The position numbers and the translations under genes were made by a program. Below are positions 13,540-18,446 of a DNA stretch of 64,000 nt, piece after piece. The notes beneath the pieces were generated by a model, which saw only the letters and a list, made by a program, of their open reading frames with translations, was not told the origin of the DNA and made no database searches. Source of the DNA: Trypanosoma brucei. Taxonomy: Eukaryota. The stretch is from assembly GCA_000002445.1 (NCBI GenBank), contig CP000070.1:1376001-1440000 (forward strand), given 5' to 3'. The number at the start of each line of letters is the position of its first letter. Position 1 is the stretch's first letter.

Positions 13540-15732
13540 ATGGGCCATTGTTGTGCCACTCAAACGAAACAAGCGCGGCTCCTACCATCAAACAATGCAT
13601 CACTTAATGCTCCGGCTGAAGTTCCCGGAGGGTCATTAGCGGCACAAACGAGGCCATCGGATGGGCAAATTAACGCCCCTACCGGCGGGGCTTCCCATGG
13701 CGTGGCGGCGGAGAGCGCTTCATCCAAATTTACGGTGAGTCCGGTGATAGGGGACCAGTCGGATTACACAACAACGATTGGGTTAGAACGTCTTGTTCCC
13801 GTAAACCGTAAGTCTGGATCACAACTTCCAGTTAATGCACATCTACGGTTAGGTTCGGACAACAGAGCGGATAGCGTTTGTGTTTTTGACAATGGGGATG
13901 ACGACGGTCGTTTCTTGACAGCACGAAGCCCCTTGTTGCTTTCGTCAATGACGACACCACGAGTGAAGTTTGTGTCGGGGACTCCAGGTACTTTTGACAC
14001 CAATGGTGGGGCTCCACCATCAGGTAGAGGGTTTCAGTCGTGTCTAAGCAGCCAATGGGACGAGTCAGTGGGAAGCAACAAACTCAACTCCTGTCATAGT
14101 ATGGTGATGAATGAAAGTGTGAACAATAGCGTAGAGGCGTATTTTGGCAGTCTAACTGCGTGCGTTCCTCCAACGGAGGTGCCACCTTCGATGTTACCGT
14201 TAGTATCAATAACGGCGTCGTCCTCGTCTTCAACCGTGTCATCACCGTTTTCGTCACTGGCAGTGCACCGCAGGGAGCCGTCGTCATTATTCGTGAATGA
14301 CAAGTCTCCTGTACAGTCTTTGGGAGTTTCATCATTCGTGACGGCCCTGTCGCCGAGCGTATCACCGCGACCGTTGCATAATGAGGCACCCCCACAATCG
14401 CATGCGGACGCTTTAGGTGCACCAACAGCGACATCAGTAAGCCACTCAAGGGGGGATCTGTCACTTGGTACCGCTATAGCACCGTCAAGAGCAACGTCGC
14501 CATCATGTTACATGGAAAATGCGTCGTTTGCAACGGCCTTGTCACTATCTGAGTCACTACAAGCGTCGCATTCCGTATTATCTTCAGTTTCGTTCCCCGG
14601 TGTAGGGGTGCAATCAGCTGCGGCATTGATTCCTCACTCCAGAGGAACTTCTTCTTTTGCGTCTGCGGTTTCACCATCAGCAGCGGTGACAACTGCGCGC
14701 TCCGCGCGAACTACGCCGTCCTTTGTGGTGACCATCTTGCCGTCAGAGGCCACAACTACTCCGCGTATGGCATTTAAAAGTGCAAGGAGCAGTAACAAAA
14801 TTGGTTCCACTACAGTCACCGGTGGCGATTTGATGTCGTGTCGTAGTCTTTCTGAAATCAGCACCTCATTGAGTGACAAAATACATAATATGAGTGGAGA
14901 GGTAGCGAGGAGTGCTTCTGAGGCTCCACAGCGTCTTGTGGTGAGGAAACGCGTTACGTCTCTAACCAATATTTCTTCTTCTTCGTATTCGCGGTTAACG
15001 GAAAAAGAGCGTGCCAGCACTCAGGAAGGTGTGACAAATTCCCCGTTAATTATGGCTGAATCATTGCCGGACCAGACTAATGGTGTTGTTATTTCGCTCT
15101 CCCCACCGGAGGACCATTCCAGTATTTTTGGAGGCAACGGCGGCGGTGGCTCCAGGGAGGTGTCGTTCGTTAGTTCTTCACCTAAAGCGGAGGGGATGTG
15201 GGTTCAATCTGGTAAGCATGGCAAAAAAAAGGCGGGCACAGTGCTGAGTTTTTTTACCCCAGATCCGGCAGTTACGCAGTTGTCGGAACATGCTGCGAAT
15301 ACCTCTTTGACATCACATATGTTGACTCGACAAAAGCCCAAAATGCTTAGTTACTTCGGCAGGCATTCGGATCCTCCGTTCTCATCTGTGAATACATTAC
15401 GCCAACGGAACGTCATGGCACGGTCGGTAGGGGCGGTTGGAGGGTTAGGTACCCTTGACGCAAGTTATAAAAAGGTGTTGGGTGATACTCAGAAGTTGTT
15501 CTCGTCGTTACCTGCGCTACCCACATACACTAAGAGGGATCACATCCCACGGAGGCGAGTGTTTGATTTAGGAACCCCCGGTAGCGCGTCAAAATCGAGG
15601 AAAAGCCCCTCACCGGAAGGCTCACAAATGATTTCCCAGATGTCCAGTTCGATTAATGGTCATGCGGCCTCAGGTGTTTCATCACCCGACTCGAAGCACA
15701 AAGAGGACGGAAAGGCACACTGTCAATCATAA
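13540..15732 (+). CDS. Hypothetical Ser-rich protein with N-terminal MGHCC (possible dual-acylation motif)
   Basis: True ATG start at 13540, preceded by a long polyY tract (13320-13450) and AG. 730 aa, very Ser/Thr/Ala-rich with no TM helix. N-terminus MGHCCATQ. Confidence 0.55.
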   Translation: MGHCCATQTKQARLLPSNNASLNAPAEVPGGSLAAQTRPSDGQINAPTGGASHGVAAESASSKFTVSPVIGDQSDYTTTIGLERLVPVNRKSGSQLPVNAHLRLGSDNRADSVCVFDNGDDDGRFLTARSPLLLSSMTTPRVKFVSGTPGTFDTNGGAPPSGRGFQSCLSSQWDESVGSNKLNSCHSMVMNESVNNSVEAYFGSLTACVPPTEVPPSMLPLVSITASSSSSTVSSPFSSLAVHRREPSSLFVNDKSPVQSLGVSSFVTALSPSVSPRPLHNEAPPQSHADALGAPTATSVSHSRGDLSLGTAIAPSRATSPSCYMENASFATALSLSESLQASHSVLSSVSFPGVGVQSAAALIPHSRGTSSFASAVSPSAAVTTARSARTTPSFVVTILPSEATTTPRMAFKSARSSNKIGSTTVTGGDLMSCRSLSEISTSLSDKIHNMSGEVARSASEAPQRLVVRKRVTSLTNISSSSYSRLTEKERASTQEGVTNSPLIMAESLPDQTNGVVISLSPPEDHSSIFGGNGGGGSREVSFVSSSPKAEGMWVQSGKHGKKKAGTVLSFFTPDPAVTQLSEHAANTSLTSHMLTRQKPKMLSYFGRHSDPPFSSVNTLRQRNVMARSVGAVGGLGTLDASYKKVLGDTQKLFSSLPALPTYTKRDHIPRRRVFDLGTPGSASKSRKSPSPEGSQMISQMSSSINGHAASGVSSPDSKHKEDGKAHCQS

Positions 15733-16656: not shown

Positions 16657-17238
16657 ATGGGTACCACCGCCAGTACGGATTCCGCAGACTCACCATTTTC
16701 TGTACGGAGCGTGGACTCTTCTGGCGGTGGAGGGTGGCGGCAGGAGGATCCCGAAAGGTTTCGAAAGTACATGCATCTCAAGTCACAAGCGGATCAGTGG
16801 CGCCAACGGCACGGCCACACGCCGGGGGCCACAAGGGGCGAACTCACGAAGAACCTCATCGAAGAAGTGTACGAAGAGGATTTCGAGTCCGTGGATCATG
16901 TGCAGTCAATGCGGTTGCCACCCATGGTGCTGAAGGAGATGAAAGATGCCGTGGCGAATGAGGCGGAGAGGCGCTGTGCGGAGACTGAAAAGGTCATGGC
17001 GCGTTGCCTACAGGATAAAATGTGGACTTCGTGGAAGTGCCAGAAGGAGAGGGATGCACTTTATCAGTGTGTGGCAGATAGGAAAGAAGACAATGAACTC
17101 CTAATGGCGTACCGTTGGAAGTATAATTTGGGCACTTTCCATGGGGAACTGATTGGGCGCAACAATATGATGCGGCGCATATGGAAGGAGCATTTCCCTG
17201 ACCGTGATTTACCACACCCATGGGTAAAGGACGCTTAG
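16657..17238 (+). CDS. Twin Cx9C (CHCH-domain) protein with N-myristoylation consensus; NDUFB7/B18-like architecture
   Basis: ATG at 16657. N-terminus MGTTAST fits the G2/S6 myristoylation consensus. C-AETEKVMAR-C then a 10-aa linker then C-QKERDALYQ-C gives two Cx9C pairs with the spacing seen in complex I subunit NDUFB7. 193 aa. Confidence 0.7.
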   Translation: MGTTASTDSADSPFSVRSVDSSGGGGWRQEDPERFRKYMHLKSQADQWRQRHGHTPGATRGELTKNLIEEVYEEDFESVDHVQSMRLPPMVLKEMKDAVANEAERRCAETEKVMARCLQDKMWTSWKCQKERDALYQCVADRKEDNELLMAYRWKYNLGTFHGELIGRNNMMRRIWKEHFPDRDLPHPWVKDA

Positions 17239-17861
17239 TAAAGACTTCGGTTCTTCAAGGTTGCCGACAACTGTTTGGTTAAACCCTTGTGCGTGTTTGC
17301 GAGGGAGGAAGACCAATGGGACTAACACTTGGCACACGACAAACTGGTTACTGGTGGGGCCCTTCTTTTGTGCGTACGGTTATGCGTCGTGTTTTGCTGT
17401 TAATGGTCGTATCGATATATTGTTTTAGTGTGGTTCTTCGGCCTTGTGTGATCGTTAGTCTCTACTTGTAGTTTAGGGGAGGCTGTCAAAAGAATAAAAT
17501 TACCTCTCACTTCTTAATGATACCCATATATATATATATACACTAATTTGTTTGCGTTTGTGAGTCACCAGTTCCTCTGTTGCTTAGGGTACTGTTCTTT
17601 TTCCTCCCTTCCCCTTTATCACATATTCGCACTTTTGTCTTTACTGCCGGATTCTTCGCTCTTTTGGGCTATTTGATCGATTTTGATGCCAGATGCGTGT
17701 TCGTGTTCTGTTTTTCGATTGTTAACAGCATTGAGGAGCGGAAAGTAACCAAGTTCACCTGTATAGGTGACGAGCACAAAAGGGGTTCGAGGTGGGGCGT
17801 AAAATCAAGTGATCCCGAGTAGGTTTTACTGTTGGTGTGCCTGCGTAACTTGCAGGTACCA

Positions 17862-18446
17862 ATGATTCAGATTATTGCGCCGAGGGGCCCCCTGCAGGAA
17901 ATGCTGCTGTTGGAATTGCAGGGCAAAGTTGTCATACCTCCCAAGTTACTGGAGGAGGAGCGGGAGAGGCAGAGAATTCCCAACAGCAGTGAAGAGGAAG
18001 TGAAGGCATGCTCTCAAGTTACTGGTGGGAAGAGGCTAAGGGAAGACGGTGAATGTGGCGTTAATGTTGATACCAATCAGGTGGTGGAGGTGCCGTTGGG
18101 CTGCGTAGTGTGGGACTCGCGCAATGAGACGCGCTGTTCGCTTCAAATTGGGACGGTTGAAGTCAGTGGCAGTTATGGGAAGAGACGAGAGCCCCTTCTT
18201 GTGTTGAAGCGCTGTGTTGTAGGGGACAAAACTGCTGATGCGGAAGGTGCGGTGGCATGTGAATACTCAGAATCGAGTGGTTCTCAGTGCTGTTTGCTAC
18301 AGGAATGGCTGCAAGAGCATCCCGAGGAACTCACATTGGATGCCACTGTGAGGGGCGCAACAGTCCCCAGAAAAGTGTACGAGCTGGTTGGTGTTGTGGA
18401 GCGTTACATTCACTTGAACTCAAAGCCCCTCCGTAGGTTCGTGTGA
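17862..18446 (+). CDS. Ctf8-like protein (CTF18-RFC complex subunit homologue), putative
   Basis: The track start at 17832 is TTG, and the ATG is at 17862. The N-terminus MIQIIAPRGPLQEMLLLELQGKVV resembles the Ctf8 N-terminus as I recall it (M.QI....G.L.E..L.ELQG). About 194 aa, consistent with Ctf8 size plus an insertion. Confidence 0.55.
   Translation: MIQIIAPRGPLQEMLLLELQGKVVIPPKLLEEERERQRIPNSSEEEVKACSQVTGGKRLREDGECGVNVDTNQVVEVPLGCVVWDSRNETRCSLQIGTVEVSGSYGKRREPLLVLKRCVVGDKTADAEGAVACEYSESSGSQCCLLQEWLQEHPEELTLDATVRGATVPRKVYELVGVVERYIHLNSKPLRRFV

What the first reader, a model, noticed from the sequence alone, without database searches (positions are those of the whole stretch)
16657..17238. 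N-myristoylatable twin-Cx9C protein with NDUFB7/B18-like spacing (alternative: Mic19-like)
It has an MGTTAS N-terminus and C-x9-C, a 10-aa linker, then C-x9-C. Two opisthokont intermembrane-space proteins share a myristoylated N-terminus and a CHCH domain: complex I subunit NDUFB7 (B18) and MICOS Mic19. The 10-residue inter-helix linker and a CQKER..Y.C second helix resemble NDUFB7 (CKQERHDWDYC). In either case this is a candidate Mia40-pathway substrate in an organism that lacks canonical Mia40.
Basis: partly seen in the sequence, partly recalled or inferred. Interest (0 to 1): 0.5.

Follow-up and report, generated by a model that had tools for sequence, protein, structure and literature searches.

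The report
Myristoylated Cmc1-like mitochondrial protein of trypanosomes

Summary
ORF 16657-17238 (+) encodes a 193-aa protein that starts MGTTAS. Its only four cysteines form CAETEKVMARC-10 aa-CQKERDALYQC. It is identical to T. brucei Q57ZG3 = Tb927.7.5260, annotated "Cmc1-like".

The motifs are conserved. 43 of 51 relatives start with MG and 41 of those have Ser/Thr at position 6. All 49 relatives with an intact domain have a 10-residue linker.

Published proteomics supports two points. The T. cruzi orthologue is pulled down by azidomyristate, and the pull-down is reduced by an NMT inhibitor. [quoted passage not shown]

The NDUFB7 reading is not supported:
- Pfam NDUF_B7 scores below its cut-off, while Cmc1 scores just above its own.
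- Profile-profile comparison favours Cmc1 (74-85% probability) over NDUFB7 (7-12%).
- T. brucei NDUFB7 is assigned to another gene, Tb927.9.11660. That gene is in the purified respiratome; Tb927.7.5260 is not.

The Mic19 reading has no support either.

An exhaustive search found the family only in kinetoplastid-type sequences.

Best reading: a membrane-tethered, Cmc1-family intermembrane-space protein, probably acting in cytochrome oxidase biogenesis. That function is inferred, not shown. Interest is modest.

The parts
16657..17238 (+). [quoted passage not shown]
   Evidence: ORF listing and sequence. Exact-sequence match to T. brucei entries AAZ12590.1 / Q57ZG3. Located on chromosome 7 of T. 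b. gambiense. Gene ID, mass and Cx9C positions match PMC5436138 Suppl. Data 9.
16657..16677 (+). N-myristoylation consensus M-G-T-T-A-S-T (Gly2, Ser6)
   Evidence: 43 of 51 family members start MG; position 6 is Ser in 40 and Thr in 1. The T. cruzi orthologue is captured by azidomyristate and is sensitive to an NMT inhibitor. Modification of the T. brucei protein itself is inferred from orthology.
16678..16839 (+). Variable, probably disordered N-terminal region (residues 8-61); its length differs widely between species
   Evidence: The alignment shows poor conservation and large insertions or deletions here. AlphaFold2 pLDDT is 38-65 over residues 1-60.
16840..16974 (+). Conserved helical region before the CHCH domain (residues 62-106: ELTKNLIEEVYEEDFESVDHVQSMRLPPMVLKEMKDAVANEAERR). 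It contains an RLPxxVL motif that aligns with yeast Cmc1 SRLPIWVL
   Evidence: Invariant D75, D80, Q83, R86, P88, P89, V91, E102 and R105. BLASTP against yeast Cmc1 starts at residue 84. Helices predicted at 67-83 and 89-106.
16975..17007 (+). First Cx9C helix, Cys107-Cys117 (CAETEKVMARC)
   Evidence: C107 and C117 are invariant. pLDDT is about 90.
17008..17037 (+). 10-residue inter-helix linker LQDKMWTSWK, nearly invariant in the family
   Evidence: Q119, D120, K121, W123, T124, W126 and K127 are invariant. The linker is 10 residues in 49 of 49 relatives.
17038..17070 (+). Second Cx9C helix, Cys128-Cys138 (CQKERDALYQC)
   Evidence: C128, Q129, K130, R132, D133 and C138 are invariant.
17071..17235 (+). 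Conserved family-specific C-terminal extension (residues 139-193: ...RWKYNLGTFHGELIGRNNMMRRIWKEHFPDRDLPHPWVKDA). Two predicted helices; no match outside the family beyond its first ~20 residues
   Evidence: Invariant R153, W154, K155, G159, G163, E164, R168, M172, W176, E178, H179, P181, R183, H187 and W189. Helices at 146-157 and 161-179 with pLDDT 80-86. hhalign against Cmc1 extends only to residue 158.

Best explanation
The ORF is Tb927.7.5260, a kinetoplastid-wide, expressed, nuclear-encoded mitochondrial protein.

Proposed mechanism, step by step:
1. In the cytosol, N-myristoyltransferase acylates Gly2 during translation. This is shown for the T. cruzi orthologue and inferred for T. brucei.
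2. The protein has no presequence and enters mitochondria through ATOM40. This is shown.
3. In the intermembrane space its four cysteines form the two disulfides of a CHCH hairpin. This would happen through the Mia40-less Erv1 pathway. It is inferred, and the ERV1-knockdown effect was not significant.
4. The myristate then tethers the folded protein to a membrane surface facing the intermembrane space. This is inferred.

By sequence the folded core belongs to the Cmc1/Cmc2 family (PF08583), not to NDUFB7 or Mic19. The most likely function is therefore that of Cmc1: a non-subunit factor on the intermembrane-space side that stabilises early Cox1-containing intermediates, or helps copper handling, during cytochrome c oxidase assembly. 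This function is inferred from family membership only.

It differs from known Cmc1 proteins in four ways: the lipid anchor, its doubled length, a conserved 55-residue C-terminal extension, and a 10- rather than 11-residue linker.
For: Identity and expression.

Conserved MG...S start, four invariant Cys and fixed linker.

N-myristoylation of the orthologue Q4E2Z0:
- LFQ FDR-corrected p = 5.8e-4 with a log2 difference of 10.2, and also enriched in SILAC.
- Enrichment falls with DDD85646 (log2 -1.5, -3.3, -1.7, all flagged significant).

Mitochondrial import:
- ATOM40 RNAi ratio 0.64, p = 0.011, and flagged in the ATOM40-dependent importome.
- No TargetP or MitoFates presequence.

Cmc1 affinity:
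- Pfam Cmc1 scores 23.4 bits, above its 22-bit cut-off. All 26 orthologues match it.
- hhalign against a vertebrate plus yeast Cmc1 profile: probability 85%, E = 5.9e-6, 62 columns; and 73.5%, E = 3e-5.
- The Cmc1 HMM scores the family at a median of 19.1 bits; the NDUFB7 HMM scores it at 12.6. The family HMM scores Cmc1 sequences at a median of 16.2 bits and NDUFB7 sequences at 3.6.
- BLASTP against yeast Cmc1 spans 81 residues, including the RLPxxVL motif and the post-CHCH segment.

Non-subunit behaviour:
- Absent from the Acestor 2011 respiratome column.
- Absent from complex I mass spectrometry of three trypanosomatids.
- No close relative in any solved structure.

Precedent for myristoylated CHCH proteins entering the intermembrane space: PMC6362269 and PMC10752898.
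Against: - The Cmc1 Pfam score is only 1.4 bits above threshold, and NDUF_B7 is only 4 bits lower.
- As single sequences, yeast Cmc1 and Arabidopsis NDUFB7 give the same BLASTP score of 25.4 bits.
- Against 1.84 billion representatives, no Cmc1 or NDUFB7 protein reaches significance. The family stands alone.
- The linker is 10 residues, as in NDUFB7. Human and yeast Cmc1 have 11.
- My comparison profiles were shallow (Neff about 2-3) and dominated by vertebrates.
- The Diplonema protein assigned as Cmc1 (CRPHHEEVISC-10-CKPLLSEYYTC) does not resemble this family.
- ERV1 knockdown lowered the protein only 0.55-fold with p = 0.195, so it was not classed as a MIA substrate.
- The L. donovani orthologue was not detected with YnMyr. 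No T. brucei orthologue appears in the T. brucei hit list compared in the T. cruzi paper.
- No functional data link it to complex IV.
Confidence: 0.5

Rival explanations
1. It is a lineage-specific intermembrane-space CHCH protein that shares only the generic CHCH scaffold with Cmc1 and NDUFB7. Its function would be unrelated to cytochrome oxidase assembly. Examples would be a lipid-anchored adaptor or chaperone for another complex, or a factor in the Mia40-less import system. Function would reside in the highly conserved family-specific N- and C-terminal flanks.
For: - The exhaustive profile search finds only 17 hits at E<=1e-3. Twelve are full-length family members, and there is no bridge to any other family.
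- More than half of the conserved residues lie outside the region that aligns with Cmc1.
- No orthologue was recognisable among the listed Diplonema twin-Cx9C proteins.
Against: - The profile-profile score against Cmc1 (36-41) is well above the baseline between two unrelated CHCH families (NDUFB7 vs Cmc1, 16-16.5).
- The match extends beyond the four Cys into both flanking segments.
- The Pfam Cmc1 gathering threshold is passed.
Confidence: 0.3
2. It is an NDUFB7/B18-type subunit of complex I, as the first reader preferred and as Leishmaniinae orthologues are automatically named. In practice it would be a second, myristoylated B18 paralogue sitting on the intermembrane-space face of the membrane arm.
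For: - 10-residue linker, as in vertebrate and plant NDUFB7.
- WKC-x2-ER-x3-Y-x-C resemblance to plant NDUFB7.
- NDUFB7 chains are the best PDB sequence hits, at E = 0.012-0.08.
- Pfam NDUF_B7 scores 19.4 bits and is matched by all 26 orthologues.
- Several Leishmaniinae orthologues are named NDUFB7 by UniRef or NCBI.
- Human NDUFB7 is N-myristoylated (PMC10752898).
Against: - Below the Pfam cut-off of 26 bits.
- hhalign probability is only 7-12%, and the aligned region does not extend beyond the segment ending at the CHCH core, unlike the Cmc1 match.
- NDUFB7-invariant D57 and H61 (the RD-C-A-H motif) are replaced by R and E.
- Tb927.9.11660 is the assigned trypanosomatid NDUFB7. It is in the respiratome and is significantly ERV1-dependent; this protein is neither.
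- Not among the 24-32 complex I proteins detected by mass spectrometry in three trypanosomatids.
- PDB contains no Cmc1 structure among the hits. The ranking of PDB hits may therefore be biased towards NDUFB7.
Confidence: 0.12
3. It is a Mic19-like MICOS component: a myristoylated CHCH protein that bridges the inner and outer membranes at crista junctions.
For: N-myristoylation plus a CHCH domain is the Mic19/Mic25 signature. The myristoyl group aids Mic19 import (PMC6362269, PMC6235283). No sequence-recognisable Mic19 is among the T. brucei MICOS subunits listed.
Against: - No MIC19_MIC25 (PF05300) hit at E<=10. The generic CHCH model scores only 11.6 bits.
- The CHCH domain is internal (107-138 of 193) and is followed by a conserved 55-residue tail. 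It is not C-terminal as in Mic19.
- Published T. brucei MICOS consists of MIC10-1, MIC10-2, MIC16, MIC17, MIC20, MIC24, MIC32, MIC34 and MIC40. There is no 22.7-kDa subunit.
Confidence: 0.04

Closest known systems
Cmc1 / Cmc2 family (Pfam PF08583; yeast Cmc1, human CMC1), intermembrane-space factors for cytochrome c oxidase assembly
   Same: - Twin Cx9C core.
- Acidic or amphipathic first helix: C-[AS]-E-x-[VE]-x-x-[MF]-x-x-C.
- Second helix of the form C-x-K-E-x-x-A-L-x-x-C.
- A conserved RLPxxVL-like segment upstream.
- A similar segment just after the fourth Cys.
- The Pfam threshold is passed, and this is the best profile-profile partner.
- It is not a stable subunit of purified respiratory complexes.
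   Different: - 193 aa rather than about 106-111.
- Conserved N-myristoylation consensus. Yeast starts MEQNKD and the mammalian orthologue closest to human starts MALDPA.
- Linker of 10, not 11.
- A 55-residue conserved C-terminal extension, and a long variable N-terminal region.
- No functional evidence for a role in COX.
NDUFB7 / B18 / NB8M (Pfam PF05676), accessory subunit of complex I
   Same: Twin Cx9C with a 10-residue linker. WKC..ER..Y.C in the second helix, as in plants. N-myristoylated in mammals. Located on the intermembrane-space side.
   Different: - Below the Pfam cut-off.
- Lacks the RD-C-A-H motif of the first helix.
- Similarity is limited to the 32-48 residue core.
- Trypanosomatids have a separate NDUFB7 (Tb927.9.11660, linker 13) that is found in complex I preparations.
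Mic19 / Mic25 (CHCHD3 / CHCHD6), MICOS
   Same: The combination of N-terminal myristoylation with a CHCH domain, and import into the intermembrane space. This is a mechanistic precedent for myristoyl-aided import.
   Different: No DUF737/MIC19 domain. The CHCH domain is not at the C-terminus. It is not a component of the characterised T. brucei MICOS.

Membership tests
NDUFB7 (PF05676) | Score at or above the Pfam gathering threshold for NDUF_B7 | tested here: not met
   19.4 bits against a cut-off of 26. The best E-value among the 26 orthologues is 8.4e-6.
NDUFB7 (PF05676) | Conserved first-helix motif R-D-x-C-A-H-x-L-I (invariant R56, D57, C59, A60, H61 in vertebrate plus plant sequences) | tested here: not met
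   One search gives the invariants. In the alignment they fall opposite R-R-C-A-E, so only C and A are kept.
NDUFB7 (PF05676) | Twin Cx9C with a 10-residue linker | tested here: met
   This feature is not specific: the Diplonema proteins assigned as Cmc1 and Cox19 also have 10.
NDUFB7 (PF05676) | Physical subunit of complex I, and the unique orthologue in the genome | tested here: not met
   Checked in the literature only. Tb927.9.11660 is the assigned NDUFB7 and is in the respiratome. Tb927.7.5260 is not in the respiratome and is not in complex I mass-spectrometry lists.
NDUFB7 (PF05676) | Best reciprocal profile match among CHCH families | tested here: not met
   hhalign probability 7-12% for NDUFB7 against 74-85% for Cmc1. 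HMMER cross-scores are lower than for Cmc1.
Cmc1/Cmc2 (PF08583) | Score at or above the Pfam gathering threshold for Cmc1 | tested here: met
   23.4 bits against a cut-off of 22, a marginal pass. All 26 orthologues match, best E = 2.9e-6.
Cmc1/Cmc2 (PF08583) | Profile-profile homology that extends beyond the four cysteines | tested here: met
   hhalign E = 5.9e-6 and 3e-5 over 62 columns, probability 85% and 73.5%. Baseline between NDUFB7 and Cmc1 is 0.6-1.2%. The profiles were shallow, so support is moderate.
Cmc1/Cmc2 (PF08583) | Spacing C-x9-C-x11-C-x9-C, as in human and yeast Cmc1 | tested here: not met
   The linker is 10 in all 49 family members and 11 in the vertebrate and yeast Cmc1 sequences. 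The hhalign alignment needs a one-residue gap.
Cmc1/Cmc2 (PF08583) | Located in the mitochondrial intermembrane space, associated with the inner membrane | tested here: inconclusive
   Mitochondrial and ATOM40-dependent. The sub-mitochondrial compartment has not been determined. The ERV1-knockdown effect was 0.55-fold with p = 0.195.
Cmc1/Cmc2 (PF08583) | Required for cytochrome c oxidase biogenesis (Cox1 module or copper delivery) | not testable with these tools
   Needs RNAi or knockout with complex IV assays. No paper in the searched library names Tb927.7.5260 in its main text.
Mic19/Mic25 (PF05300 plus C-terminal CHCH) | MIC19/DUF737 domain, with the CHCH domain at the extreme C-terminus | tested here: not met
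   No PF05300 hit at E<=10. The CHCH domain is at 107-138 of 193 and is followed by a conserved tail.
Mic19/Mic25 (PF05300 plus C-terminal CHCH) | Component of MICOS | tested here: not met
   Checked in the literature only. The T. brucei MICOS subunit list contains no protein of this size.
Mic19/Mic25 (PF05300 plus C-terminal CHCH) | N-terminal myristoylation | tested here: met
   Conserved MG...S start. Experimental capture of the T. cruzi orthologue. This feature is shared with NDUFB7 and is not diagnostic.
Classical twin-Cx9C substrates of the mitochondrial disulfide relay | Abundance depends on Erv1 | tested here: inconclusive
   In PMC5436138 the ratio was 0.549 (log2 -0.86) with p = 0.195, quantified from one peptide in each replicate. 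This is below the study's threshold of log2 <= -1 and p < 0.05.

The most novel reading that the evidence does not exclude
The family is a kinetoplastid invention rather than a true Cmc1 orthologue. It would be a lipid-anchored CHCH protein whose myristoyl group substitutes for Mia40-mediated trapping during import through ATOM. Its conserved family-specific flanks would carry a function not yet described, for example in assembling the highly divergent trypanosomatid respiratory chain or in the Erv1/TbMic20 oxidative import route.
Probability: 0.25. Interest if true: 0.55.

Novelty: new variant of a known kind. Interest (0 to 1): 0.3.

Why it matters
Trypanosomatids lack Mia40, yet they import many twin-Cx9C proteins. 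A conserved, experimentally myristoylated member of this class is a convenient probe for how lipidated substrates cross ATOM and are retained without Mia40.

The result also exposes an annotation conflict. Trypanosoma orthologues are named Cmc1-like, while Leishmaniinae orthologues are named NDUFB7. A different gene is the complex I subunit actually detected in purified complexes.

N-myristoyltransferase is a validated drug target in these parasites. A myristoylated factor needed for respiratory chain biogenesis would therefore be one route by which NMT inhibitors affect mitochondria.

None of this is very surprising to a specialist. The gene is annotated and appears in several proteomic data sets, and its function remains untested.

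Tried and rejected
Searches that were uninformative:
- NCBIfam gave nothing relevant.
- PDB sequence searches, with the single protein and with the family profile, gave only weak NDUFB7 and NDUFA8 hits at E >= 0.012. No Euglena, Tetrahymena or trypanosome respiratory-complex chain matched.
- The afdb50 library was not available.
- The exhaustive HMM search of 1.84 billion representatives found no relatives outside the family.

Literature checks:
- Searches for Q57ZG3 and Tb927.7.5260 in main texts returned nothing.
- The T. brucei YnMyr paper (Wright 2016) is not held.
- The L. donovani orthologue LdBPK_060700.1 is predicted to be myristoylated but was not detected.
- A search for Phytomonas plus Cmc1 returned nothing.
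- I looked for an orthologue among the Diplonema twin-Cx9C proteins. None has the CQKERD-type helix.

Other points:
- A first hhalign run was accidentally in global mode and was discarded.
- The Pfam RGI1 hit (17.2 bits, cut-off 25) was treated as spurious.
- I considered a Mia40 analogue and rejected it. The protein has only four cysteines and no CPC or CxxC redox motif.
- I could not establish whether the environmental homologues come from diplonemids or kinetoplastids.
Full report
**1. The observation**

The + strand ORF 16657..17238 encodes 193 residues beginning MGTTASTD. Its ATG is the first start codon after the upstream in-frame stop.

The protein has exactly four cysteines, at 107, 117, 128 and 138. 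They are arranged as CAETEKVMARC, a 10-residue linker, and CQKERDALYQC.

**2. Identity**

The translation is an exact match to T. brucei Q57ZG3 (AAZ12590.1). [quoted passage not shown] It lies on chromosome 7 in T. b. gambiense.

Supplementary tables of Peikert et al. 2017 (PMC5436138) tie Q57ZG3 to Tb927.7.5260, with a mass of 22.68 kDa and Cx9C motifs at 107-117 and 128-138. My computed mass is 22,680 Da.

All other large ORFs in the window lie on the same strand, as expected for a trypanosome polycistronic unit.

**3. The motifs are conserved, not chance**

- A first search found 42 homologues, all kinetoplastid or unnamed environmental sequences.
- In a 26-sequence alignment the four Cys are invariant, as are most of the linker (Q119, D120, K121, W123, T124, W126, K127) and much of the flanking sequence.
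- Across 51 family sequences, 43 start with MG. Position 6 is Ser in 40, Thr in 1 and Val in 2.
- At least four of the eight exceptions are visibly fragments, chimeric assemblies or over-extended gene calls. Two of them carry an internal MGS at the homologous place.
- The linker is exactly 10 residues in all 49 sequences with an intact domain.

**4. Experimental support from the literature**

*N-myristoylation.* In Roberts and Fairlamb 2016 (PMC4974623) the T. cruzi orthologue Q4E2Z0 (184 aa, MGARASS...) was enriched by azidomyristate click capture. This held in the label-free experiment (FDR-corrected p = 5.8e-4, log2 difference 10.2) and in the SILAC experiment, with 16 unique peptides. The enrichment fell with the NMT inhibitor DDD85646 (log2 -1.49, -3.25 and -1.68, all flagged significant).

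The L. donovani orthologue LdBPK_060700.1 is listed among MG proteins with positive predictor scores. It was not detected with YnMyr. The T. cruzi paper's cross-species table shows no orthologue in the L. donovani or T. brucei hit lists. The T. brucei study itself is not held. Myristoylation is therefore shown in T. cruzi and inferred in T. brucei.

*Mitochondrial import.* Tb927.7.5260 falls to 0.64-fold on ATOM40 RNAi (p = 0.011) and is flagged as part of the ATOM40-dependent importome. It was also in earlier mitochondrial proteomes, and it has no predicted presequence.

*Erv1 dependence.* On ERV1 RNAi it fell to 0.55-fold, but with p = 0.195 from single-peptide quantification. It was not classed as a MIA-pathway substrate.

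**5. Which CHCH family?**

*Pfam and PDB.* Pfam gives Cmc1 at 23.4 bits (cut-off 22) and NDUF_B7 at 19.4 bits (cut-off 26). CMC4 and the generic CHCH model score lower. Nothing matches Mic19. All 26 orthologues hit both the Cmc1 and NDUF_B7 models. PDB sequence searches return only weak plant and fungal NDUFB7 and NDUFA8 chains (E >= 0.012). PDB contains no Cmc1 structure among the hits to compete with them.

*Exhaustive search.* A profile search of 1.84 billion representatives found only 17 hits at E <= 1e-3. Twelve are full-length members of the same family, including the prokinetoplastid Papus ankaliazontas. There is no bridge to any other family.

*Profile-profile comparison.* I collected real NDUFB7 and Cmc1 sequences and compared profiles. 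Pr. = hhalign probability.

| Comparison | | |
|---|---|---|
| Family vs Cmc1 | Pr. 85%, E = 5.9e-6, score 41, 62 columns | Pr. 73.5%, E = 3e-5, score 36.5 |
| Family vs NDUFB7 | Pr. 12%, score 25, 48 columns | Pr. 6.8%, score 24.3, 35 columns |
| NDUFB7 vs Cmc1 (baseline) | Pr. 0.6%, score 16.0 | Pr. 1.2%, score 16.5 |

*HMMER cross-searches* agree:

| HMM | Target sequences | Median bits |
|---|---|---|
| Family | Cmc1 | 16.2 |
| Family | NDUFB7 | 3.6 |
| Cmc1 | Family | 19.1 |
| NDUFB7 | Family | 12.6 |

*Pairwise comparison.* Yeast Cmc1 and Arabidopsis NDUFB7 give the same BLASTP score of 25.4 bits. The Cmc1 alignment spans 81 residues, including an upstream RLPxxVL motif and the segment after the fourth Cys. 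The NDUFB7 match is confined to the 32-residue core.

*Points in favour of NDUFB7.* The linker is 10 residues, whereas human and yeast Cmc1 have 11. The second helix also has the WKC..ER..Y.C pattern.

*Point against NDUFB7.* The invariant RD-C-A-H motif of the first helix is not kept.

**6. Independent evidence against NDUFB7 and Mic19**

Cermakova et al. 2021 (PMC8312217) assign trypanosomatid NDUFB7 to Tb927.9.11660. They detected NDUFB7 by mass spectrometry in complex I of two species. Tb927.7.5260 does not appear in their lists.

In Peikert's reference table, Tb927.9.11660 carries the "Respiratome" flag (Acestor 2011) and Tb927.7.5260 does not. Tb927.9.11660 was also significantly ERV1-dependent (ratio 0.47, p = 3.8e-4).

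The characterised T. brucei MICOS comprises MIC10-1, MIC10-2, MIC16, MIC17, MIC20, MIC24, MIC32, MIC34 and MIC40, with no 22.7-kDa component. In this protein the CHCH domain is also internal, not C-terminal as in Mic19.

**7. Structure**

AlphaFold2 with the family alignment gives a confident helical core for residues 90-180 (pLDDT 80-94). The N-terminal 60 residues are of low confidence.

**8. Interpretation**

The protein is a real, expressed, mitochondrially imported twin-Cx9C protein with a conserved myristoylation signal that is used in T. cruzi.

Its folded core is best placed in the Cmc1/Cmc2 family, as TriTrypDB already does. It is an unusual member:

- it is twice the usual length;
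- it is lipid-anchored;
- it has a 10-residue linker;
- it has a 55-residue C-terminal extension conserved throughout Kinetoplastea.

The likely mechanism is as follows:

1. Gly2 is myristoylated during translation.
2. The protein is imported through ATOM without a presequence. Myristoylated Mic19 and NDUFB7 are precedents (PMC6362269, PMC10752898).
3. It folds oxidatively in the Mia40-less Erv1 system.
4. It is tethered to a membrane on the intermembrane-space side.
5. There it acts as a non-subunit factor in cytochrome c oxidase biogenesis.

Only steps 1 (in T. cruzi) and 2 are shown. The rest is inferred.

The main rival is that it is a lineage-specific CHCH protein with a different function. 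I give that rival about 0.3.

**9. Novelty and interest**

The gene, its Cmc1-like label, its twin-Cx9C motif, its mitochondrial import and its orthologue's myristoylation are all already in public data. I found no paper that connects them or studies the protein.

The same mis-assignment exists in automatic annotation of Leishmaniinae orthologues.

I rate this a new variant of a known kind, of modest interest (0.3).

Noticed in passing
window 13540-15732 (+): The upstream gene encodes a 730-aa Ser-rich protein starting MGHCCATQTK (Gly2 plus Cys4/Cys5, a candidate myristoylation plus palmitoylation signal). It has no Pfam domain. In L. donovani, the gene at the matching position (LdBPK_060680.1, two gene numbers before the orthologue LdBPK_060700.1) starts MGCKCTK and is listed among MG proteins. 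Two candidate acylated proteins may therefore lie close together. Orthology was judged from position only.
   Followed up: partly
window 17832-18446 (+): The downstream ORF matches Pfam Ctf8 (PF09696, 34.1 bits, E = 4e-8). Ctf8 is a subunit of the Ctf18 replication factor C-like complex.
   Followed up: partly
Orthologues P0012, P0028, P0032, P0034, P0036 versus P0001, P0002, P0006, P0007, P0010: Public annotation of this one orthologous group is split. Trypanosoma and Bodo entries are named Cmc1-like or COX assembly protein. Several Leishmaniinae entries are named NDUFB7/B18. The published trypanosomatid NDUFB7 is a different gene, Tb927.9.11660.
   Followed up: yes
P0057 (627 aa, from the representative library): This is a protein of about six tandem repeats. 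Each repeat contains WHCQKDRLALY and GYFHGEI, which echo the family's WKCQKERDALY and LGTFHGEI. It hit the family profile at E = 4e-12 in six stretches. It may be a tandem array of degenerate gene fragments. Its origin is unknown.
   Followed up: no
window 1-64000: Sixteen of the 17 ORFs of at least 250 aa are on the + strand. The only one on the - strand lies inside a longer + strand ORF. This is consistent with a single trypanosome polycistronic transcription unit.
   Followed up: no
PMC5436138 Suppl. Data 9 (T. brucei proteome): Several other T. brucei twin-Cx9C proteins in the importome remain 'hypothetical', for example Tb927.9.3340, Tb927.9.7980, Tb927.9.6620 and Tb927.5.690. Any of them could be the counterpart of the Diplonema protein assigned as Cmc1. 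If so, the Cmc1 label on Tb927.7.5260 would be weakened.
   Followed up: no
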